IMG/VR virus record: IMGVR_UViG_3300027852_000046
Coordinates: 1-52,827 of that record
Direction: 5' to 3' (one strand)
Length of the DNA: 52,827 nucleotides
Source: a virus
Lineage: Duplodnaviria > Caudoviricetes
Part shown: positions 6,748 to 52,827 of the stretch, one piece after another
Layout of the letters: every line of letters begins with the position of its first letter
Position numbering within the stretch: position 1 is the first letter of the stretch
Notes under the pieces: model-generated
The model's input: only the letters and a program-made list of their open reading frames with translations
Told to the model about the DNA's origin: nothing
The model's database searches: none
Program-made: the position numbers and the translations under genes

Positions 6748-6987
6748 TGTTCCGCTTATTACGCTGTTAGCTGGAACTCCAGCCGTTATCTTTAGAGCAA
6801 GCCTCGACTCTCTCAAAACGTCGGTCCTTATAGTTCTTGTTTAATGAATCGCTTAATTTATCCATTGCTTCTAACTCGACGTGCATAAGAGCAACCCGCA
6901 TATCTTCATTACTTGCTGTTTTATACCAGTCGTCTTTCATTATTTTTTCTATATTCATACTAGCCTCCCAGCTAACAAGTTTTTCAA
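6748..6987 (+). mobile_element. Cassette array C: attI-like site (6748-6766), 1 cassette and a half attC
   Basis: Motif followed by TTAGCT, then AGCTAACAAGTTTTTCAA at 6970-6987. Confidence 0.75.
6767..6958 (-). CDS. Cassette hypothetical protein
   Basis: GGAGG RBS; first 31 aa identical to 7637-7957. Confidence 0.75.
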   Translation of the reverse strand: MNIEKIMKDDWYKTASNEDMRVALMHVELEAMDKLSDSLNKNYKDRRFERVEACSKDNGWSSS

Positions 6988-6996
6988 CATGATCTC

Positions 6997-7025
6997 ATTG
7001 TAACTAGCATTTGCTATTATGTCAA
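6997..7025 (-). promoter_or_regulatory. Leftward early sigma70 promoter
   Basis: TTGACA-17 bp-TACAAT on the - strand. Confidence 0.8.
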
Positions 7026-7106
7026 ACAATAAAAAAAGGCTTAGCCAAAAAACCATCACTTGAAACGTGGAGTTGATAATGACCAAGCCTTAGTTTATAC
7101 TGCAAT

Positions 7107-7138
7107 CTAATCAGCGGGAGGCTAACCCCGCTGATTAG
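7107..7138. repeat. Perfect 12-bp inverted repeat
   Basis: CTAATCAGCGGG-8 nt-CCCGCTGATTAG. Confidence 0.8.
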
Positions 7139-7546
7139 TTAATTGAGGTGTTAGAGGACCTGCAATTAAGTTGAATGTATTTTAATTCAATCCACCCCTA
7201 AAGGTCAAACCCTAAATAAGTGTTTAGATATCTTGACTGAATTACTCAAAGATCATGCTGAAGAGCTTTAACCTTAAAAAGTTTGTGTAACTGGGGGCTA
7301 GGCTGACCCAACGCTTTAGCAAGCGACCGAAACGTCCGTTATGTGATTTTGCTGTACGGGTACGATGCTTACCATTTAGTCTACGATCACAAGTAGGCGA
7401 AAAGCAGGACGTAATTAGTTGCACATTCAAAACCAATAGCTAGTTGGCATAAGCAATATGATGAAAGGTTTAATATATATTTATATATCACAAATCGGTC
7501 TAAATGATAGTTATTGCCTAAAACAAATAAACAAAGTTAAATTAAT

Positions 7547-7587
7547 ATAGCAAAAGCTATTGACATACTATTCATCCTTGCTAAGAT
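7547..7587 (+). promoter_or_regulatory. Rightward early promoter with adjacent palindromic operator
   Basis: ATAGC-AAAA-GCTAT (7547-7560) abutting TTGACA-16 bp-TAAGAT (7560-7587). Confidence 0.7.
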
Positions 7588-7636
7588 AGAGCCATATCAA
7601 AGCAAGATTGAAAGACTTGTTAGCTGGGAGGCTATT

Positions 7637-7957
7637 ATGAATATAGAAAAAATAATGAAAGACGACTGGTACAAAACAGCAAGCAATGAAGATATGCGGG
7701 TTGCTCTTATGCACGTCGAGCTAGAAGCGATTGACGCATTAAATAACTCGTCAAATCAAAACTATAAGGATAGGCGTAGCGAGCGTGTTGAGGAATGCTC
7801 TAAAGAGATAGGGGCGGATGGGGTTGCTAGCAGGGTTGCTCGAATGAATGAGCAGGCTCAGAGTGAATCTAAAATATTAGCAGGTGTGATAATGACAGAC
7901 TATAGCGCCGCAGAAATGAACAGTGATATTGTCGTGACTAAGACCGACAACACATAA
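7637..7957 (+). CDS. Cassette hypothetical protein (probable chimera)
   Basis: N-terminal half matches 6767-6958; flanking cores do not match each other. Confidence 0.75.
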   Translation: MNIEKIMKDDWYKTASNEDMRVALMHVELEAIDALNNSSNQNYKDRRSERVEECSKEIGADGVASRVARMNEQAQSESKILAGVIMTDYSAAEMNSDIVVTKTDNT

Positions 7958-8036
7958 CGCATTAATTCAGTGGCGGCATGACCAACCTAAAACAAGGCGC
8001 AAACAGTGAGCCGTCCACTGCAATGCCTTGTTATGT
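7952..8036 (-). other. attC-like site
   Basis: ACATAACGC..CAGTGGCGGC..GCCGTCCACTG..TTGTTATGT. Confidence 0.85.
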
Positions 8037-8131
8037 TGCGGAGGAAAGCAGAATACTTAAAGCGTGGGCTACCATGTGAACCCTGAGCAGGTAGCATCTG
8101 TCCCAGAAAGGTGGGGATGTAAGCCCCACCA

Positions 8132-8192
8132 CCTATTCTCGCCTGATGAGCGTTAGGCGAAACCGCTAGCAGTAGCGGTAGCGCGGAGTGGG
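8132..8192 (+). ncRNA. Hammerhead ribozyme-like element (type I topology) in a non-coding cassette
   Basis: CTGATGA (8143-8149), 2-bp stem II, GAAA (8159-8162), stem III ACCGCTA/TAGCGGT, GUA triplet ending at 8180, stem I 8132-8142/8181-8192. Confidence 0.7.
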
Positions 8193-8246
8193 CACAGCTG
8201 GGGAATAACTGTCCACCAGGGGTTCACGCTTTAAGTGTTTTGAGCA

Positions 8247-8375
8247 ATATAACGCTTTAGTTGTACAGCCTGCGGGAATTAAACAAAGGAGCTATAAAAA
8301 TGCAAGAAGATACGCGAACCAATGAAACTGAAAGCGGCACGGAAGTAGCAGGTCAGGACGAACGACTTGTTATAC
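8247..8375 (-). other. attC-like site, leader-encoding family
   Basis: ATATAAC...GTTATAC; leader ORF 8300-8395 ends in an ATGA overlap with the MTase start. Confidence 0.85.
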
Positions 8376-8391
8376 GAATTAGGGCGACAAC

Positions 8392-8985
8392 ATGAAAATA
8401 TTAGTTGCATGTGAATACAGCGGGAAAGTGAGGGATTCCTTTAATAAGGCAGGCCATGATGCAATAAGCTGTGATTTATTGCCAACAGACGCGCCTGGTA
8501 ATCACTACCAAGGTGATGTTTTTGATATTATAAATGATGGGTTTGATCTTATGGTTGCCCATCCTCCATGCACATATCTAACAAATGCCGGAGTCTCGCA
8601 TCTTCATAAAGACGCAAAACGATGGTTAGATTTGTTTGAAGGGGCGGACTTTTTCAAGAAGCTGTTAAATGCGGATATCCCGAAAATAGCGATTGAAAAC
8701 CCGATAATGCACAAATACGGGAAACGTTTAATAGGTGATATTAAACAGAGCCAGGTTGTGCAGCCCTGGATGTTTGGGCATACAGAGCAGAAAGCGACTT
8801 GCCTCTGGTTGAAAGGACTACCTAAATTAACAGAGACAAGAAATGTTAAGGAGGAAATGATGCTTTTACCAAAAAACAAACGGGAACGACTCCATTATTT
8901 GCCCCCATCTAAAGACAGATGGAAGTTAAGAAGTGAAACGTACCAAGGGCTTGCCGATGCAATGGCTTCGCAGTGGGGCGTATAA
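8392..8985 (+). CDS. Cassette-borne phage DNA cytosine methyltransferase-like protein
   Basis: MKILVACEYSG, AHPPCTYL (PC catalytic motif) and IENP. Confidence 0.8.
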   Translation: MKILVACEYSGKVRDSFNKAGHDAISCDLLPTDAPGNHYQGDVFDIINDGFDLMVAHPPCTYLTNAGVSHLHKDAKRWLDLFEGADFFKKLLNADIPKIAIENPIMHKYGKRLIGDIKQSQVVQPWMFGHTEQKATCLWLKGLPKLTETRNVKEEMMLLPKNKRERLHYLPPSKDRWKLRSETYQGLADAMASQWGV

Positions 8986-9030
8986 CAGCGCAATAAGCGG
9001 AACAAACACAATTAACGAAGGAGTAATAAC

Positions 9031-9657
9031 ATGATTGACTTAACAAAATACTTACTTAAAGAGCTACAAAATAAGATTAAAAAGACTGTTGGTGGTGACG
9101 ATGTAGAAATCTATGCAATACATAAAGATCAAGAATATCCAATATTAGGGTCACGTTTAGATGGTGGTCAGCGAATTCCTGATAGCTGGAAAAATACTGG
9201 TGAATATATAAGAGATAATAAATACAATCTATGTCTATCAGCCTTCACGCCAGAAATAGACTATAACCAATTGCCTGTTGATACGCTTATAGAAGTTGAA
9301 GGCTTAGGGAAGAGATATACTGCGTGCTGGCCTCTAGATGATAGTAATTTAGTCAGATTCTATGATGAGGGAAGCGACAGCAACACAGGATCTATTTACA
9401 TAAGCATAAACAAGAAAAAATGCAAACTAATAACTAACTCACGTAAAGGCTGGTTCGGAGGTGAAGTCGGTATTCCTGACGGGGTTAAATTGAGAGTATG
9501 GGAAGTAAATACAAATGGAAGCGCTTTAATAAGCACTAATTACATCGCAATTATGCAGGGCTATCTCAGGGATATTTTTGACTCAAGTGGAGGCGGTTTA
9601 GGAATAACAAGCTACCAAATACTAGGTGAAGATTATAAAGAAGGAGATGAATTATGA
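9031..9657 (+). CDS. Hypothetical protein
   Basis: 208-aa ORF with AAGGAG RBS. Confidence 0.7.
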   Translation: MIDLTKYLLKELQNKIKKTVGGDDVEIYAIHKDQEYPILGSRLDGGQRIPDSWKNTGEYIRDNKYNLCLSAFTPEIDYNQLPVDTLIEVEGLGKRYTACWPLDDSNLVRFYDEGSDSNTGSIYISINKKKCKLITNSRKGWFGGEVGIPDGVKLRVWEVNTNGSALISTNYIAIMQGYLRDIFDSSGGGLGITSYQILGEDYKEGDEL

Positions 9658-9778
9658 TAGACCAAAGAAGAAATTGCGAACAAAGAGACATTAGAAAAAT
9701 GCGAACCTTAGAGCTTGCTCTTTACTCGGTATTAGCTATTAGCACCTTGGCTATCACTCACACTATTTACGCAGCGCT

Positions 9779-10120
9779 ATGAGTCAAGTGCAAGGTATGC
9801 CGTGCCATATAACTGAAATGGGTGACGAGTTTGATAATCATAATTCTGTTGAGATTGATGCTGATAAAGAAATCTCAATTATCAAAGAGGCTTTGTTAAA
9901 CGGTGATAGATTCAACACTTACGGCAATCACATTGTTGACTTTAGTAACGTCGTAGATGATGAACTTTGCTGTAATGCTGAATTTGGCAATGCTTTGAGG
10001 AAGCTAATGATAGGTGACAAAGATCAGGCCGTTAACGAATTAAGAATGATAGTTAACAAAGAAGCTGGAAAATTAGCTGAGTTGATTCACATGGAAAGAG
10101 AGGCTGCTAAAGATGAATAA
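9779..10120 (+). CDS. Hypothetical protein
   Basis: ORF within the operon. Confidence 0.65.
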   Translation: MSQVQGMPCHITEMGDEFDNHNSVEIDADKEISIIKEALLNGDRFNTYGNHIVDFSNVVDDELCCNAEFGNALRKLMIGDKDQAVNELRMIVNKEAGKLAELIHMEREAAKDE

Positions 10121-10852: not shown

Positions 10853-11484
10853 TTTTTACATTCCATGATGTTGAGCAGAATACCGATGAATGGTACCACC
10901 TACGAGGTGGTAAATTCACCAGCTCTAACGCTGGTAAAGTGATGGCTAATCTTGGTAAAGCGTTTGGTGAGCCTGCCAAGAAATACGCAGTTAATATCGC
11001 CATTGAACAGATAACAGGTAAGCCAATTTCCAGCGATTATACTAATGCCCACATGGATCGAGGCCATGAGCAAGAACCTGTGGCCAGAGCATTATATGAA
11101 GATAGAATTTTCGGTGATGTTGATAACGGTGGTTTTTTCGGTTCTGATTTTATCGGCTGTTCACCTGACGGGCTTGTGTATTCTTATGGTGTCATCGAGA
11201 TAAAATCAGTTATAGCATCCGTTCACTTTAACAACATTAAAAGAGGCACGGTTGATCCTGCTTATAAATGGCAATGTATCTGCAACTTATTGTTCACTGG
11301 TAGGGACTGGATTGATTTTGTTAGTTATTGTTCGGAGTTTCCACTAGATAATCAGCTTTACATTTACAGGATGAATAAAGAAGATTATCAAGAAGAGTTT
11401 AAGCAGGTAAATGATAGGCTTGATGAATTTAAAGAGTTAGTAGATTTAACTAGGCTAACAATCATAAATAGCAAGGCAATATAA
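10849..11484 (+). CDS. YqaJ/lambda-exonuclease family protein
   Basis: EQNTDEWYHLRGGKFTSS, MDRGHEQEP, CSPDGL and IEIK motifs. Confidence 0.9.
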   Translation: MIFTFHDVEQNTDEWYHLRGGKFTSSNAGKVMANLGKAFGEPAKKYAVNIAIEQITGKPISSDYTNAHMDRGHEQEPVARALYEDRIFGDVDNGGFFGSDFIGCSPDGLVYSYGVIEIKSVIASVHFNNIKRGTVDPAYKWQCICNLLFTGRDWIDFVSYCSEFPLDNQLYIYRMNKEDYQEEFKQVNDRLDEFKELVDLTRLTIINSKAI

Positions 11485-11949: not shown

Positions 11950-12024
11950 TTTGGTGATATTGGGAATATAGTTAGTTAATGGCTCAATTTGGGCGACTTG
12001 TTATAACTTTTATTAGGAATTGAT

Positions 12025-12213
12025 ATGAATTTGAACCCTTGGCAGGAAAAACCTTTGTCGGAATGGGCTATTTGCGGAATGAATCACTACCATGTGGGCG
12101 GTGAAAGATTTCTTTTTGTTTCGATGGTAAAAGATGGAAAGTGTATTACTGAGGAGGGAAAAGATGACGAACATCTTTGGAGCAGAATACGAATCAAGGC
12201 TACTGAGTTATAA
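12025..12213 (+). CDS. Cassette hypothetical protein
   Basis: Bounded by GTTATAACT and AGTTATAAC. Confidence 0.7.
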   Translation: MNLNPWQEKPLSEWAICGMNHYHVGGERFLFVSMVKDGKCITEEGKDDEHLWSRIRIKATEL

Positions 12214-12271
12214 CGCTTTAGTTAAAGAGGCGGGTGTTTTTACCCGCTCTATTTTAAACGCCTTGTTATAT
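12208..12271 (-). other. attC-like site
   Basis: TTATAAC..GCGGGT..ACCCGC..GTTATAT. Confidence 0.85.
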
Positions 12272-12285
12272 TTTGGAGGTTGAGA

Positions 12286-12552
12286 ATGAAATACAGAAGA
12301 CCAAAGGTGACTGAAGGCCAGATAAAAATGCAAAGAGGACGTATAGATGGAGAAACTGATATGTGCATTTTTTTTGGTGACGACGTTCCGCGATGTGACA
12401 GAGCACTAGTTATGAGTGCGATTTGCTCAGAAAGGCAATACACCGACTTTTCTACAATGAAGCCTCGTTTTGATCCATCGCTAATAGATGAGCTTGAGAA
12501 CAGAGGTTATGACATTGACACGTTACGATTTTCTATTGATCGAAAAATATAA
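12286..12552 (+). CDS. Cassette hypothetical protein
   Basis: GGAGG RBS; SLIDELENRGYDIDTLRFSIDRK C-terminus. Confidence 0.7.
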   Translation: MKYRRPKVTEGQIKMQRGRIDGETDMCIFFGDDVPRCDRALVMSAICSERQYTDFSTMKPRFDPSLIDELENRGYDIDTLRFSIDRKI

Positions 12553-12628
12553 CGCTCTAGCTAACCAGTGAGGAGCGAAATGAGCAAAGCGAATGAAGAG
12601 ACGAGTCAGGTTGGGCGCCTTGTTATAC
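12547..12628 (-). other. attC-like site, 82-bp leader-encoding family
   Basis: Near-identical to 3295-3376; leader ORF 12580-12648. Confidence 0.85.
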
Positions 12629-12650
12629 GAATTAAACACAGGAGATAAAG

Positions 12651-12902
12651 ATGATTACAAATGTTAAAAAGATTAGTGAACTTGACTTCGATTCAGTCGA
12701 CTTCGATTCAGGTGGCTGGGGATGGAGTTTTCGTGGTGGTCTGATAGCTGAAGATGGTCTATTTTCAATATTGACCATAGACGATGATGGTAATGAAATT
12801 AGATACGATATACCTAAGTGCATATGCGAAATACTGATGAAGCAATATGATGATGGCAGGATGGACGCTAAACGAAAAATATGTGAGGCACTTGGCGTAT
12901 AA
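12651..12902 (+). CDS. Cassette hypothetical protein
   Basis: Bounded by GTTATAC and GTATAAC. Confidence 0.7.
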   Translation: MITNVKKISELDFDSVDFDSGGWGWSFRGGLIAEDGLFSILTIDDDGNEIRYDIPKCICEILMKQYDDGRMDAKRKICEALGV

Positions 12903-12955
12903 CGCCCGATATTAAGCCGCCGAGGTACGAGGTCGGCTTGAATTTCTTGTTAGCT
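12897..12955 (-). other. attC-like site
   Basis: GTATAAC..TAAGCCGCC..GGTCGGCTTGA..GTTAGCT, 59 bp. Confidence 0.9.
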
Positions 12956-20285: not shown

Positions 20286-20443
20286 CAAAACAGGGGAGGC
20301 TTGATGTGCCCGAAGGAATGATTCCGCCAGCAACACCACTAAACATATCTTACGGAGAGGCTCAGGCTTAAGGTAAAGCGCCGAGGTACGAGGTCGATTT
20401 TGACCGACTTGTTATACGCCTAACATAAATAAAGGTATTAGAA

Positions 20444-20683
20444 ATGCAACTAAAAGAACTAAAGATTGAGAGAAAATCATGGGGAAAGGACGAAGGGAAA
20501 CACGTTGGAACAGCCTCTTTTGATAATGAGCTTGGACTTGTAGCAATAAAGCTTACTCCTGAGTTATGTAATGAGCTTTTTAGACTGTGCGCTGATGGAA
20601 TAGTAAGCACCGCAAAGGAAGCGGCTAAAGAATTGACGTGCTCAGTAATTGAGCACCAAGCTAAGTTAGAAGATGGCGTATAA
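20444..20683 (+). CDS. Cassette hypothetical protein
   Basis: Bounded by GTTATACGCC and GGCGTATAAC. Confidence 0.7.
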   Translation: MQLKELKIERKSWGKDEGKHVGTASFDNELGLVAIKLTPELCNELFRLCADGIVSTAKEAAKELTCSVIEHQAKLEDGV

Positions 20684-20737
20684 CGCTTTAGTTAAGCCGC
20701 CGCGCTTTTCGCGGTCGGATTGAAAGACTTGTTATAA
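20678..20737 (-). other. attC-like site
   Basis: GTATAAC..CCGCCGCG..CGCGGTCGG..GTTATAA. Confidence 0.9.
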
Positions 20738-20752
20738 ACCGGAGTTTAAAGA

Positions 20753-20950
20753 ATGACAGAAGTTGAAGCAGTTGAAAAACACAAAGAGCTATATGACCGT
20801 GCCGGAGCTGTTGGCCTGACACTAAAAACCAACGGCGAGTGGTTTGAATTTAATATTAAGCAAGCTAATGGCTTGATTTCAAAAAAGACACTGGCTGAAA
20901 TTGAAGTTTTTATTTGCGGCTATGAGCTTGGATACCATGCAGGTTTATAA
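20753..20950 (+). CDS. Cassette hypothetical protein
   Basis: Bounded by GTTATAAACC and GGTTTATAAC. Confidence 0.7.
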   Translation: MTEVEAVEKHKELYDRAGAVGLTLKTNGEWFEFNIKQANGLISKKTLAEIEVFICGYELGYHAGL

Positions 20951-21004
20951 CGCCCGTTAATAAGCCGTGAGCGTAGCGAGTCGGCTTAATAAACTTTGTT
21001 ATAT
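20945..21004 (-). other. attC-like site
   Basis: TTATAAC..TAAGCCG..CGGCTTA..GTTATAT; similar to 3876-3936. Confidence 0.9.
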
Positions 21005-21025
21005 TTAAAATACTGGAGATGAAAA

Positions 21026-21358
21026 ATGAAAGATTGGATTAAAAGAAAACTAGGAATTACAGCTCTTGAAAAAGAAAACGAAATGTTACGAATTGCCCTG
21101 AAAAATCATCGTAAATTTGTACAAAACAAGGTTTCAGAGCTGAAAGATTATACCCGTGTTGATGCTGATGTGGGGGCTAGGGGAAATAACACAATAGTGC
21201 TAACAGGCGTGTATAAAAAAAATGCATTTGTAAGGTTTTATGACATTGGTGACGGTCAATTTGAACAGCTTGTAAACCAAATGAGGAGCATGAAAGACCA
21301 TTGCTTAATTAGAAATATAGATATGCCTCCACAGTTCAAAGGCATGTTTGAAATATAA
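21026..21358 (+). CDS. Cassette hypothetical protein
   Basis: GGAG RBS; stop lies in the core. Confidence 0.7.
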   Translation: MKDWIKRKLGITALEKENEMLRIALKNHRKFVQNKVSELKDYTRVDADVGARGNNTIVLTGVYKKNAFVRFYDIGDGQFEQLVNQMRSMKDHCLIRNIDMPPQFKGMFEI

Positions 21359-21480
21359 CGCTTTAGTTGTACAGCCTGCGGGAATTAACAAAGGAGCTAT
21401 AAAAATGCAAGAAGGTACGCGAACCAAAGAAACTGAAAACGGCACGGAGTTAGCAGGTCAGGACGAACGACTTGTTATAT
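21353..21480 (-). other. attC-like site, leader-encoding family
   Basis: ATATAAC...GTTATAT, 128 bp. Confidence 0.85.
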
Positions 21481-21677
21481 TGCCGCGCCCATGCCCTTGG
21501 TGCAATAGCAAAAGTATTGATCTTAGTTTTGCGCGAGGCTTTACTGCTGGGGACAAAAGAAGGCCAATTATCGGTGCTGGTTGTTCTAATTGCGGTGCAG
21601 TTGGCCCTATGGTGGAATTTGACTCAATAAATGGATATGAAGAATCTCAAAAAGCTTGGGATGACAGGGCAATATAA
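21405..21677 (+). CDS. Lar-family restriction alleviation-like protein with attC-encoded leader
   Basis: PCPWC...CSNCGAVGP...AWDDRA; ATG lies inside the attC. Confidence 0.7.
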   Translation: MQEGTRTKETENGTELAGQDERLVILPRPCPWCNSKSIDLSFARGFTAGDKRRPIIGAGCSNCGAVGPMVEFDSINGYEESQKAWDDRAI

Positions 21678-21734
21678 CGCTTTAGGTAAAACGCCGAGCG
21701 GCAGCGAAGGTCGATTTTGACCGACTGGTTATAT
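21672..21734 (-). other. attC-like site
   Basis: ATATAAC..GGTAAAACG..CGATTTTGACC..GTTATAT. Confidence 0.85.
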
Positions 21735-21755
21735 TACGATTACTGGAGAACTAAG

Positions 21756-22157
21756 ATGGAAAGAGTATTTTTAGGTGGAACATGTAACGAAAGCACCTGG
21801 AGAAACCAGATGATGGTATATCTGAGTGACTTTGGAATGGAGTATTTCAATCCCGTGGTCGATGACTGGGATGATAACGCACAAGCTAATGAGCTGCGGG
21901 AGCGAGAAGAATGTGATTTCTGTCTTTATACAATTACACCAAAAATGACAGGCACGTATTCAATCGCCGAAGTGGTAGACGACAGCAACAAAAGGCCAAT
22001 GAAAACAGTAATGGTGTTGTTGCGAGATGACGATGGTAGCAAATTTACAGAGGGGCAATGGAAATCATTAGGATCTGTAGCAAATATGGTTAAGCGCAAT
22101 GGTGGGCAAGTATTTGACAACCTACGCCTTGCTGCAACCGCGATTGCCGGAAAGTAA
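21756..22157 (+). CDS. Nucleoside 2-deoxyribosyltransferase-like domain protein
   Basis: VFLGGTCNESTWR, YFNPVVDDW and YSIAEVVD motifs. Confidence 0.7.
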   Translation: MERVFLGGTCNESTWRNQMMVYLSDFGMEYFNPVVDDWDDNAQANELREREECDFCLYTITPKMTGTYSIAEVVDDSNKRPMKTVMVLLRDDDGSKFTEGQWKSLGSVANMVKRNGGQVFDNLRLAATAIAGK

Positions 22158-22217
22158 TATAACGCCCGTTAATAAGCAGCCGAGTTTACGAGGTCGGCTT
22201 GATAAACCTTGTTATAG
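22157..22217 (-). other. attC-like site
   Basis: ATATAAC..ATAAGCAGCC..GGTCGGCTTGAT..GTTATAG. Confidence 0.85.
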
Positions 22218-52376: not shown

Positions 52377-52658
52377 TTATGTTTGCTTACAGCTTCTCAA
52401 TAATTCATATAAACCATTCAAAGCGGATAATGCTATAGGGTCGCTTTTGTCGTGCATCATTAACGTATTAATCGCATTTGCATAAAACGCAGCATTGTCG
52501 CCTCGTATAAAAATTCCTGCCCAATCATCACCAAACTGAATTGAACCAGTTTCTACGCGATGTTTATTTTCAGGTATTGGCAACATAACAAGTCGTTCGT
52601 CCTGACCTGCTACCTCTGTGGCTTTTTCAGTTTCTTTGGTTCGCTTATCTTCTTGCAT
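52377..52658 (-). CDS. Cassette hypothetical protein with attC-encoded leader
   Basis: MQEDKRTKETEKATEVAGQDERLVM fused to RVETGSIQFGDDWAGIFIRGDNA. Confidence 0.75.
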   Translation of the reverse strand: MQEDKRTKETEKATEVAGQDERLVMLPIPENKHRVETGSIQFGDDWAGIFIRGDNAAFYANAINTLMMHDKSDPIALSALNGLYELLRSCKQT

Positions 52659-52710
52659 TTTTATAGCTCCTTTGTTAGTTCCCGCAGGCTGTACAACTAG
52701 AGCGTTATGC
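52583..52710 (+). other. attC-like site, leader-encoding family
   Basis: ACATAAC...GTTATGC; R'' complements GTTATGT at 52376. Confidence 0.85.
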
Positions 52711-52827
52711 CCTAAATCTAAAGTCTTCCGTCATCATCCTCTCGAAATCATCTGTATTTTTCGCGGCAATAAACCAGCTCTTGCGCTTCCAGTTGCCTTT
52801 GAGGTTTGTGAAGACAACAGAGCATCC
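52701..52827 (+). repeat. 127-bp direct repeat of 516-642
   Basis: Exact match by eye; length equals a common assembler k-mer. Confidence 0.9.

What the first reader, a model, noticed from the sequence alone, without database searches (positions are those of the whole stretch)
8030..8253. Non-coding cassette carrying a hammerhead-ribozyme-like structured RNA
Seen: the unit between cores GTTATGTTGC (8030) and GCAATATAAC (ending 8253) has no convincing ORF. It has long closing helices (AATACTTAAAGCGTG 8052-8066 with CACGCTTTAAGTGTT 8225-8239; GTGAACCCTG 8076-8085 with CAGGGGTTCAC 8217-8227) and a GGTGGGG/CCCCACC hairpin. It also has a full hammerhead core: CUGAUGA, 2-bp stem II, GAAA, 7-bp stem III, GUA (predicted cut after 8180) and a bulged stem I. 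An alternative hairpin (CGCCTGAT/GTTAGGCG, 8140-8159) would sequester the core. Inference: a mobile cassette delivers a possibly switchable self-cleaving RNA that processes the early transcript upstream of the MTase gene. Stem II is unusually short, so activity is uncertain.
Basis: partly seen in the sequence, partly recalled or inferred. Interest (0 to 1): 0.85.

Follow-up and report, generated by a model that had tools for sequence, protein, structure and literature searches.

The report
Hammerhead ribozyme inside conserved phage RNA
The non-coding unit carries a genuine hammerhead self-cleaving motif, sitting inside a compact, doubly knotted RNA that recurs in many unrelated phages, with and without the ribozyme, and that I could not find described.

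Summary
The hammerhead is not a chance match. Two motif scans of viral contigs that did not require CUGANGA recovered more than 100 homologues. In a 44-row alignment, C3, G5 and A6 are invariant, N7 alone varies freely, H17 is never G, and stems I, II and III covary. A covariance model built without the window copy and its three nearest relatives scores window 8057-8242 at 84.3 bits (E 2.6e-22).

It has two hairpin-plus-tail modules, and each tail pairs with the other module's loop, giving two pseudoknots. This core occurs in three forms: uninterrupted with no hammerhead, with a type I hammerhead inserted in one loop (the window), and circularly permuted with the hammerhead at the 5' end (E. 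coli lambdoid prophages). Copies often lie in phage tRNA arrays. Rfam 15 has no family for the core, and six literature searches found no description.

The window's short stem II is normal for the family. Its competing hairpin costs about 10 kcal/mol and is not conserved, so "switchable" is unsupported and the efficiency of this copy is uncertain. The function of the core is unknown.

The parts
8030..8039 (+). Outer helix 5' strand, which is also the phage's module boundary (CTTGTTAT at 8026-8033)
   Evidence: It pairs with 8244-8253 in the minimum-free-energy fold.
8049..8066 (+). Closing helix P0, 5' strand. It pairs with 8225-8242.
   Evidence: Flank duplex is -34.2 kcal/mol against -13.3 kcal/mol for non-cognate flanks. 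Long cognate closing helices recur in relatives (32 of 44 at or below -15 kcal/mol).
8062..8067 (+). 5' motif X-CGUGG (X = G8062). C, G, U and the last G are invariant in 44 of 44 rows.
8068..8095 (+). Hairpin Pa (8068-8073 with 8090-8095). Its loop holds the pseudoknot PK2 5' strand (8075-8085).
   Evidence: Pa is 98.5% paired and 5 of 6 pairs show compensatory changes. PK2 is 10 bp in the window.
8095..8107 (+). Invariant CAUCU (8095-8099), then the pseudoknot PK1 5' strand (8102-8106)
   Evidence: PK1 is 98.5% paired and 3 of 6 pairs are compensatory. In the window, A8105-U8199 replaces the common G-C.
8110..8130 (+). Subfamily-specific extra hairpin GGUGGGG / CCCCACC
   Evidence: shared with L306, L340 and L348. 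L340 has GGCGGGG / CCCCGCC, one compensatory change.
8135..8183 (+). Type I hammerhead. Stem I is 8140-8142 with 8181-8183 (extension 8135-8139 with 8185-8189 past bulged C8184). Core C3-A9 is 8143-8149. Stem II is 8150-8151 with 8157-8158. G12-A14 is 8159-8161. Stem III is 8162-8168 with 8173-8179. H17 is A8180. The predicted cut is between 8180 and 8181.
8139..8160 (+). Competing hairpin UCGCCUGAU-GAGC-GUUAGGCGA, which sequesters the core
   Evidence: The hammerhead fold costs +10.1 kcal/mol relative to it, the second highest of 44. It is not conserved in relatives.
8181..8189 (+). Internal motif X'-CGYGGAGU (X' = G8181), which doubles as the stem I 3' strand
8188..8216 (+). Hairpin Pb (8188-8193 with 8211-8216). 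Its conserved loop holds the PK1 3' strand (8198-8202) and invariant GGGGAAUAA (8200-8208).
   Evidence: Pb is 98.9% paired and 3 of 6 pairs are compensatory.
8217..8228 (+). Pseudoknot PK2 3' strand
8225..8253 (+). P0 3' strand (8225-8242) and outer helix 3' strand, which is also the module boundary (8244-8253; TATAACGC at 8248-8255)
7560..7587 (+). Sigma-70-like promoter match (TTGACA, 16 nt, TAAGAT, with TG) that would drive the transcript carrying the element
   Evidence: This is a consensus match only. Five such sites were found in the region against 4.0 expected from shuffles.

Best explanation
Window 8049-8242 (outer helix 8030-8253) encodes one copy of a widespread phage non-coding RNA, transcribed on the + strand within the rightward operon.

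Its core has two similar modules, each made of a motif, a 6-bp hairpin and a tail. H1 is CGUGG, hairpin Pa and a tail. H2 is CGYGGAGU, hairpin Pb and a tail. Each tail pairs with the loop of the other module's hairpin (pseudoknots PK1 and PK2). A long helix, P0, closes the whole structure.

In the window, as in most members found, a type I hammerhead ribozyme sits in the loop between H1 and H2. It uses the conserved X'-CGY of H2 as the 3' strand of its stem I.

Inferred mechanism: after transcription the hammerhead cuts between A8180 and G8181. This leaves the upstream RNA (ORF 7637-7957, H1 and the ribozyme) with a 2',3'-cyclic phosphate. The downstream RNA (H2, the leader ORF and the methyltransferase operon) gets a 5'-hydroxyl. 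The two halves can stay joined through PK1, PK2 and P0 as a nicked, two-piece form of the core.

What is shown: the family, its helices, conservation of the catalytic core, and the three gene arrangements. What is inferred: cleavage itself, its efficiency in this copy, and what the core does.

My best guess for the core is a stable, trans-acting RNA made together with tRNAs or in highly transcribed leaders. On that view the hammerhead serves as a context-independent processing device. The function of the core is unknown.
For: - Homologues found without asking for the catalytic 5' core. The scan CGAAAC-N-GGAGT-N-GGGGAATAA of viral contigs gave 96 stretches. Of 99 matches including the window, 96 have CUGANGA in place upstream.
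- Catalytic core in the 44-row alignment A2. C3 44/44, U4 43/44, G5 44/44, A6 44/44, G8 43/44, A9 43/44. N7 varies freely (U 26, C 13, A 5). U16.1 44/44. H17 is A 20 and C 24, never G. Among 77 distinct hammerhead-bearing copies the cleavage triplet is GUC 46, GUA 28 and others 3.
- Covariation. 97.8% of 1228 cells are paired (shuffle mean 76.8%, 0 of 500 shuffles reach it). The covariation score is 0.558 against at most 0.074 for slid partners. Compensatory changes occur in stem I (2 of 4 pairs), stem II (1 of 2), stem III (2 of 4), Pa (5 of 6), PK1 (3 of 6) and Pb (3 of 6).
- PK2. 44 of 44 rows have 6-10 uninterrupted pairs (mean 8.1, against 4.6 with non-cognate tails).
- Leave-out model. 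Window 8057-8242 scores 84.3 bits, E 2.6e-22, and is the only hit in the window.
- Hammerhead-less copies with the same helices. 11 were found in viral contigs and 7 of 11 hits in genome contigs are real members. L406 lies exactly between two tRNAs.
- Permuted copies keep the same helices. 14 distinct copies have Pa of 6-7 bp, PK2 mean 7.8 bp against 4.8 non-cognate, and PK1 mean 6.1 bp.
- Strand. The + strand fold is 22 kcal/mol more stable than the - strand fold.
- Context. 19 of 97 instances have tRNAs within 600 nt, always on the same strand.
Against: - No RNA data exist for this phage. One DNA run holds the stretch and no RNA holder is listed.
- Rfam's hammerhead models do not reach their cut-offs, either on the window or on 12 member loci (24-31 bits).
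- In this copy a 9-bp hairpin that buries C3-U7 is 10.1 kcal/mol more stable than the hammerhead fold. That is the second worst of 44 (median 2.65). It would also form first during transcription, so this copy may cleave slowly or not at all.
- Hammerhead-less copies show the cut is not needed for the core.
- The search patterns fixed CGAAAC, GGAGU and GGGGAAUAA, so conservation of those letters is by construction.
- Rows are related sequences, so shuffle controls overstate significance.
- The model E-values are rough.
- No protein, ligand or phenotype is tied to the core.
Confidence: 0.75

Rival explanations
1. The window copy is a member of the family, but its hammerhead is trapped by the 8139-8160 hairpin and is effectively inactive. 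The element would then work only as the uncut core RNA, as the hammerhead-less members do.
For: The energy cost of the hammerhead fold is +10.1 kcal/mol, second highest of 44. The hairpin is completed before stem III and the stem I 3' strand are transcribed. Hammerhead-less members and members with degenerate cores (L308, L311, L351; L408) show the core persists without cleavage.
Against: All core and flanking positions in the window match the family consensus. Four other members have penalties of 9-11 kcal/mol yet keep intact cores. The nearest-neighbour energies used leave out the hammerhead's tertiary contacts and the surrounding pseudoknots.
Confidence: 0.25
2. One reading: a switchable (allosteric or riboswitch-like) ribozyme. 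The structured domain or the alternative hairpin gates cleavage and so controls the downstream methyltransferase operon.
For: A competing hairpin exists. The base before CGUGG equals the base before CGYGGAGU in 69 of 72 copies. Hammerhead position 2.1 is complementary to both, which would allow strand exchange. The core is highly conserved, as an aptamer is.
Against: The window's hairpin is not conserved. The element is not linked to the methyltransferase, being absent from 80 of 80 loci. It is not linked to any one downstream gene either: terminase-like in 16 loci, lysis genes in about 12, tRNAs in 19. Hammerhead-less copies inside tRNA arrays have no expression platform.
Confidence: 0.1
3. 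The two-module domain is only a peripheral domain of an extended hammerhead. It would replace the usual stem I / stem II loop contact, and the sole job of the whole unit would be to cut polycistronic phage RNA.
For: Stem II is short and variable across the family. The domain always abuts stem I, and the circular permutation keeps it there. Phage hammerheads have been proposed to process long transcripts (PMC3088659, passages seen).
Against: At least 18 copies keep the full domain with no hammerhead. Three others carry unrelated inserts in the same loop.
Confidence: 0.1
4. A chance hammerhead-like motif in a DNA-level palindrome, such as a recombination or boundary element.
For: The unit is flanked by the phage's boundary repeats. 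Both strands fold better than shuffles. Rfam scores are below cut-off.
Against: The leave-out model E-value is 2.6e-22. Compensatory changes occur in six helices, with G-U pairs tolerated. The + strand is far more stable than the - strand. Homologues occur in phages that lack these boundaries.
Confidence: 0.01

Closest known systems
Type I hammerhead ribozymes of phages and prophages (Perreault et al. 2011, PMC3088659; passages read)
   Same: Consensus core, A15.1-U16.1, H17, three helices, stem I open, short stem II, intergenic position in phage operons.
   Different: Here the far end of stem I runs into a conserved domain of about 95 nt with two pseudoknots. That domain also exists without the ribozyme. 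I saw no such domain in the passages read. The paper's alignments (Dataset S1) are supplements I could not open.
RAGATH-1 hammerhead (Rfam RF03152)
   Same: It is the best Rfam match. Both have an upstream hairpin, a very short stem II and a type I layout.
   Different: The score is 19.8 bits against a cut-off of 56.3. The Rfam model has no H1/H2 domain. Other family members hit Hammerhead_1, Hammerhead_3 or HH9 instead, all below cut-off.
GOLLD and ROOL large phage RNAs (Weinberg et al. 2017, PMC5737381; passage read)
   Same: Structured RNAs of unknown function found in prophages and often next to tRNAs.
   Different: Those are several hundred nucleotides long (recalled), carry no ribozyme in the passage read, and are Rfam families. 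This core is about 95 nt and matches no Rfam family.
Two-piece (circularly permuted) tmRNA genes (mentioned in PMC10085705; passage read)
   Same: One RNA fold is encoded either continuously or in permuted order, and can work as two base-paired pieces.
   Different: There is no sequence or structural likeness. ARAGORN finds no tmRNA in the window. Here a built-in ribozyme, not a host nuclease, would make the break.
Pseudo-two-fold symmetric riboswitch aptamers such as the c-di-AMP (ydaO) class (recalled, not tested beyond Rfam)
   Same: A tandem-module architecture with reciprocal long-range pairings.
   Different: No Rfam riboswitch family matches at E up to 1. Many copies have no downstream gene to regulate. 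No ligand is known.

Membership tests
Hammerhead ribozyme (type I) | Core C3 U4 G5 A6 N7 G8 A9 and G12 A13 A14 | tested here: met
   Window 8143-8149 CUGAUGA and 8159-8161 GAA. In the family: C3 44/44, U4 43/44, G5 44/44, A6 44/44, G8 43/44, A9 43/44. G12-A14 were fixed by the search pattern.
Hammerhead ribozyme (type I) | A15.1-U16.1 pair and cleavage-site H17 (not G) | tested here: met
   A8162-U8179 and A8180. In the family: U16.1 44/44, H17 A 20 and C 24, G 0.
Hammerhead ribozyme (type I) | Three helices around the core, supported by covariation; G10.1-C11.1 | tested here: met
   Stem I is 93.8% paired, stem II 97.7%, stem III 98.3%, each with compensatory pairs. G10.1-C11.1 is present in 43 of 44 rows.
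Hammerhead ribozyme (type I) | Tertiary contact holding stems I and II parallel | tested here: inconclusive
   No conserved loop-loop pairing was seen. Stem II loops vary. The H1/H2 domain may supply the contact, but this is untested.
Hammerhead ribozyme (type I) | Site-specific self-cleavage giving 2',3'-cyclic phosphate and 5'-OH ends | not testable with these tools
   No RNA run is available.
Rfam hammerhead families (RF00163, RF00008, RF02275, RF02276, RF02277, RF03152) | Score at or above the curated gathering cut-off | tested here: not met
   The window has 0 hits at gathering score. The best is RF03152 at 19.8 bits against 56.3. Members score 24-31 bits against cut-offs of 34-52.
Two-module double-pseudoknot phage RNA (family defined here) | Motifs CGUGG, CAUCU, CGYGGAGU, GGGGAAUAA and ACC, with helices Pa, Pb, PK1 and PK2 | tested here: met
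   All are present in the window. The leave-out model gives 84.3 bits, E 2.6e-22.
Integron gene cassette / attC | attC recombination site with RYYYAAC / GTTRRRY cores (recalled) and an IntI integrase nearby | not tested
   The boundaries TATAAC...GTTATA only resemble the recalled core pattern. I made no search for an integrase. I do not file the element here.
Riboswitch-controlled (allosteric) ribozyme | Ligand-dependent change in cleavage or expression | not testable with these tools
   No Rfam aptamer matches. The alternative hairpin is not conserved.

The most novel reading that the evidence does not exclude
The core is a new class of phage non-coding RNA. It is a pseudo-two-fold symmetric, doubly pseudoknotted RNA of about 95 nt, made alongside phage tRNAs or in heavily transcribed leaders. 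It occurs in phages of Proteobacteria and Actinobacteria, and on metagenome-bin contigs labelled Bacteroidota, Saccharibacteria and archaea. It would act in trans on a symmetric or universal partner, such as a dimeric host protein, part of the tRNA or translation machinery, or a small signalling molecule. Evolution has repeatedly fitted it with a built-in hammerhead that releases or nicks it in any transcript, giving continuous, split and circularly permuted genes for one fold.
Probability: 0.4. Interest if true: 0.85.

Novelty: new variant of a known kind. Interest (0 to 1): 0.72.

Why it matters
Hammerheads in phages are known, but what they do there is a long-standing open question. This family ties a hammerhead to a defined, strongly conserved RNA partner.

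One fold is encoded in three ways: uninterrupted, ribozyme-nicked, and circularly permuted with the ribozyme at the 5' end. That is a natural experiment on why a phage RNA needs a self-made 5'-hydroxyl end.

The family occurs in tractable systems. These include E. coli lambdoid prophages (between the Q antiterminator gene and the holin gene), Enterobacter phage SDFMU_EhYP, Pectobacterium and Dickeya phages, Mycobacterium phage Gaia and Arthrobacter phage Constance. Cleavage, structure and phenotype can therefore be tested directly.

If the core proves to be a trans-acting RNA with a host target, it adds a new class to the short list of phage structured RNAs. For this window, the immediate consequence is that the 'non-coding cassette' is a real RNA gene.

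Tried and rejected
- **Rfam.** Gathering mode on the whole window gave nothing. E-value mode on 7900-8420 gave only two sub-threshold matches.
- **Direct similarity searches for the element.**
  - The phage collection gave no match in near mode with 7000-10000 or in distant mode with 8000-8300.
  - An exact 27-mer of the core gave 0 hits in viral contigs.
  - nhmmer and blastn against 80 methyltransferase loci gave no significant match. nhmmer found nothing and the best blastn E-value was 0.078.
  - A single-sequence covariance model R1 found 0 copies in 40 whole related records.
  - Model R2 found 0 copies in 80 terminase loci, 1.15 Mb.
- **Terminase relatives.** These are at most 59% identical, so no close relative of this phage was available.
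- **Boundary-motif scan.** TATAACGCTTTAGTT gave mostly single, chance-like hits. It was useful only for L272. L013 came from the methyltransferase scan.
- **RNA evidence.** No RNA holder is listed and only one DNA run holds the stretch.
- **Helix P1.** I considered a helix between CGUGG and CGYGG and dropped it. The G10-to-U change in 6 rows is not compensated.
- **Other folds.** By inspection only, I considered and rejected an HDV-like fold, a tRNA-like 3' end, tmRNA (one search finds none), pistol, hatchet and twister-sister (no Rfam hit). The helix order or the ends do not fit.
- **Literature.** Searches found no description of this hammerhead-plus-domain family.
  - I read passages only of PMC3088659, PMC10085705, PMC7761336 and PMC5737381.
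  - I also read passages of PMC11702757 and PMC13346280, which concern RAGATH-18, not this RNA.
  - The 2015 paper that defined the RAGATH motifs was not held under the id I tried, which I recalled from memory.
  - Supplements are closed. Alignments or motif lists there may already contain these sequences.
Full report
**Observation.**
- The two 10-nt inverted 'cores' are at 8030-8039 and 8244-8253.
- The two long helices are 8052-8066 with 8225-8239, and 8076-8085 with 8217-8227.
- The GGTGGGG / CCCCACC hairpin is at 8110-8130.
- The hammerhead layout is complete. C3-A9 is 8143-8149. Stem II is two G-C pairs (8150-8151 with 8157-8158) closing a GUUAG loop. G12-A14 is 8159-8161. Stem III is 8162-8168 with 8173-8179. 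H17 is A8180. Stem I is 8140-8142 with 8181-8183, continuing past a bulged C8184.

Only ORFs of 30-36 aa overlap the unit. The + strand folds at -100.4 kcal/mol (z -6.37) and the - strand at -78.6 kcal/mol (z -4.19), which points to a + strand RNA. Rfam does not call it. There is nothing at gathering score in the window. The best sub-threshold match is RAGATH-1-hammerhead at 19.8 bits against a cut-off of 56.3.

**Setting.** The window is a 52.8-kb virus record whose sequence is held by one marine-metagenome DNA run. It is a tailed phage with terminase, portal and major head protein genes.

The element lies in the rightward operon. A promoter-like site is at 7560-7587, ORF 7637-7957 is upstream, and a short leader ORF and a DNA methyltransferase gene (phrog_757) follow it.

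The phage is built of gene-sized modules bounded by CTTGTTAT(A) on the 5' side and TATAACGC on the 3' side, with hairpin spacers of about 50 nt. The element occupies one such slot. The same boundaries occur in L013, and a near-identical spacer occurs in L272. So the 'cassette' position is real. That modules move by recombination at these boundaries is an inference.

**Finding relatives.** Direct similarity searches failed.

A scan of viral contigs for the hammerhead core with a 2-bp G-C stem II gave 22 loci. Two of them, L282 and L285, shared long blocks with the window outside the hammerhead.

I then scanned for those blocks (CGAAAC, a gap, GGAGT, a gap, GGGGAATAA) without asking for CUGANGA. 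That gave 96 stretches. Of 99 matches including the window, 96 have CUGANGA in the right place. The three exceptions (L308, L311, L351) have degenerate cores.

**The hammerhead is real.** Evidence comes from alignment A2 (44 rows).
- Positions the search did not fix are conserved as a hammerhead requires. C3 44/44, U4 43/44, G5 44/44, A6 44/44, G8 43/44, A9 43/44, U16.1 44/44.
- N7 varies freely (U 26, C 13, A 5). H17 is A or C and never G.
- Among 77 distinct hammerhead-bearing copies the cleavage triplet is GUC 46, GUA 28 and others 3.
- Stems I, II and III are 93.8%, 97.7% and 98.3% paired, each with compensatory changes.
- Two-bp stem II occurs in several members. It is described as common in natural hammerheads (PMC3088659, passage seen).
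- A model built from 40 rows, without the window copy and its three closest relatives, scores window 8057-8242 at 84.3 bits, E 2.6e-22. It is the only hit in the window.

**The larger RNA.** The flanks are not mere closing helices. Two modules recur.

| Module | Motif | Hairpin | What follows |
|---|---|---|---|
| H1 | X-CGUGG | Pa (6 bp) | invariant CAUCU, then a C-rich tail |
| H2 | X'-CGYGGAGU | Pb (6 bp, loop with invariant GGGGAAUAA) | ACC, then a tail |

- The H1 tail pairs with the Pb loop (PK1). It is 98.5% paired and 3 of 6 pairs are compensatory.
- The H2 tail pairs with the Pa loop (PK2). All 44 rows have 6-10 uninterrupted pairs, mean 8.1 against 4.6 with non-cognate tails.
- Pa and Pb are 98.5% and 98.9% paired, with 5 and 3 compensatory pairs.
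- Over all six helices, 97.8% of 1228 cells are paired. The covariation score is 0.558 against at most 0.074 when partners are slid.
- A long closing helix P0 is frequent. 32 of 44 rows are at or below -15 kcal/mol. The window is -34.2 against -13.3 for non-cognate flanks.
- The window's GGUGGGG hairpin is an insertion shared with L306, L340 and L348, with one compensatory change in L340.

**Three gene arrangements.** Of 88 non-duplicate instances from the first scan, 48 have H1, hammerhead, H2 (the window's form). 28 have hammerhead, H2, connector hairpin, H1. 11 were unclassified by my pattern and 1 matched both.

In 14 distinct permuted copies the same helices hold. Pa is 6-7 bp. PK2 averages 7.8 bp against 4.8 non-cognate. 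PK1 averages 6.1 bp.

Among 49 new instances, 28 carry a hammerhead and 21 do not match my hammerhead pattern.
- Ten of those 21 join H1 directly to H2 by a linker of a few nucleotides and match the CAUCU pattern (L397, L399, L404, L416, L418, L419, L430, L433, L441, L442).
- An eleventh, L406, reads CAGCUGG in place of CAUCUGG.
- Three carry other inserts in the same loop.
- Three are chance coding hits.
- The remaining four are cut by a contig end or look permuted; I did not classify them further.

A scan of species-representative genomes for the hammerhead-less form gave 11 stretches. All are on metagenome-bin contigs. Seven are real members and 4 are chance. So the core can exist without the ribozyme, and the ribozyme occupies a loop that tolerates insertions.

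**An unexplained regularity.** The base before CGUGG equals the base before CGYGGAGU in most copies.
- 42 of 44 window-type rows (17.6 expected if independent).
- 15 of 15 distinct permuted copies.
- 12 of 13 distinct hammerhead-less copies.

In hammerhead-bearing copies, position 2.1 is complementary to both. Together with the repeated module layout, this suggests a pseudo-two-fold symmetric RNA in which strands could exchange partners. I could not test that.

**Context across the family.**
- 19 of 97 instances have tRNAs within 600 nt, always on the same strand.
- L406 is a hammerhead-less copy lying exactly between two tRNAs.
- A terminase-like gene lies downstream in 16 loci.
- Lambda-type holin, lysozyme and Rz genes lie downstream in about 12 loci. 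Those same loci have Q-like antiterminator and RusA genes upstream.
- In an E. coli prophage the permuted copy lies between the antiterminator gene and the holin gene, and nothing is annotated there. Phage lambda shares only the flank.
- Named phages with the element are Enterobacter phage SDFMU_EhYP (between the capsid and tail tubular A genes), Dickeya phage Setonix, Pectobacterium phages Pappous and Taid, Arthrobacter phages Constance and Karkharias, and Mycobacterium phage Gaia.
- There is no link to the methyltransferase (0 of 80 loci) or to this phage's terminase lineage (0 of 80 loci).

**How it most likely works here.**
- Shown: the window copy has every conserved feature of the family.
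- Inferred: the transcript from the rightward promoter folds into the two-module core. The hammerhead then cuts between A8180 and G8181. The halves can remain paired through PK1, PK2 and P0.

The efficiency of this copy is in doubt. A 9-bp hairpin (8139-8147 with 8152-8160) buries C3-U7 and makes the hammerhead fold 10.1 kcal/mol less stable. That is the second worst of 44 rows (median 2.65; 15 of 44 at or below 1). The hairpin is not conserved. L306 has 5 bp and L340 has a different 6-bp hairpin. So I see no evidence that it is a selected switch.

The role of the core is not known. Its presence in tRNA arrays and in highly transcribed leaders, its independence from any protein gene, and its hammerhead-less form all favour a stable trans-acting RNA. 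A purely cis-acting processing signal fits them less well.

**Comparison with what is known.** The ribozyme part is an ordinary type I hammerhead by every sequence criterion I could test, although it falls below Rfam's cut-offs. The core matches no Rfam 15 family at E up to 0.1 on 12 member loci and up to 1 on 6 further loci.

Six full-text searches found no description of it. The passages I read from four relevant papers on ribozymes and structured RNAs did not describe it either. The 2015 RAGATH paper was not held and supplements are closed, so earlier mention there cannot be excluded.

**Verdict.** The finding is a real hammerhead embedded in what appears to be an undescribed, widespread phage RNA family with continuous, nicked and permuted gene forms.

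Noticed in passing
window 8026-8374, 11998-12905, 20409-22215 (+ strand); 443-4420 and 52585 (- strand): Small genes sit in modules bounded by CTTGTTAT(A) on the 5' side and TATAACGC on the 3' side. Imperfect-hairpin spacers of about 50 nt separate them, an integron-like or PeSL-like modular layout. The same boundaries are in L013, and a 57-nt spacer 96% identical is in L272.
   Followed up: partly
window 8275-8374, 21380-21479, 740-838 (-), 52585-52676 (-): A 100-nt module (ribosome-binding site plus a leader peptide starting MQEDTRT) is present four times at 89-92% identity. At 8300-8395 it overlaps the methyltransferase start through ATGA. At 21406 it is fused in frame to a small zinc-ribbon protein.
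   Followed up: partly
window 6789-6987 and 7608-7806: A 199-nt inverted repeat (85% complementary) brackets the divergent promoter region. The first genes of the leftward and rightward operons therefore start alike.
   Followed up: no
window 512-642 and 52697-52827: A 131-nt direct repeat (99%) runs to the contig end. The sequence before it is not repeated, so it is not a simple terminal redundancy.
   Followed up: no
L377 2551-2882 (- strand): Two tandem copies of the hammerhead-bearing RNA lie 172 nt apart. Cutting at both would release a unit-length RNA with 5'-OH and cyclic-phosphate ends, the kind that could circularise.
   Followed up: no
A2 columns 6, 97 and 150; all three arrangements: The base before CGUGG equals the base before CGYGGAGU in 69 of 72 copies. 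This identity covariation points to pseudo-symmetry or strand exchange.
   Followed up: partly
L289 and L291 (about 11095-11115 and 2187-2207, - strand); L288 2344-2364 (- strand): Other hammerhead-like motifs with a 2-bp G-C stem II, a 4-bp stem III and a 4-6-bp stem I turned up in the core scan. They lack the H1/H2 domain.
   Followed up: no
L395 3266-3281 and 3517-3532: In the E. coli prophage, a 16-nt direct repeat brackets the 235 nt just upstream of the permuted element. It looks like an insertion scar.
   Followed up: no
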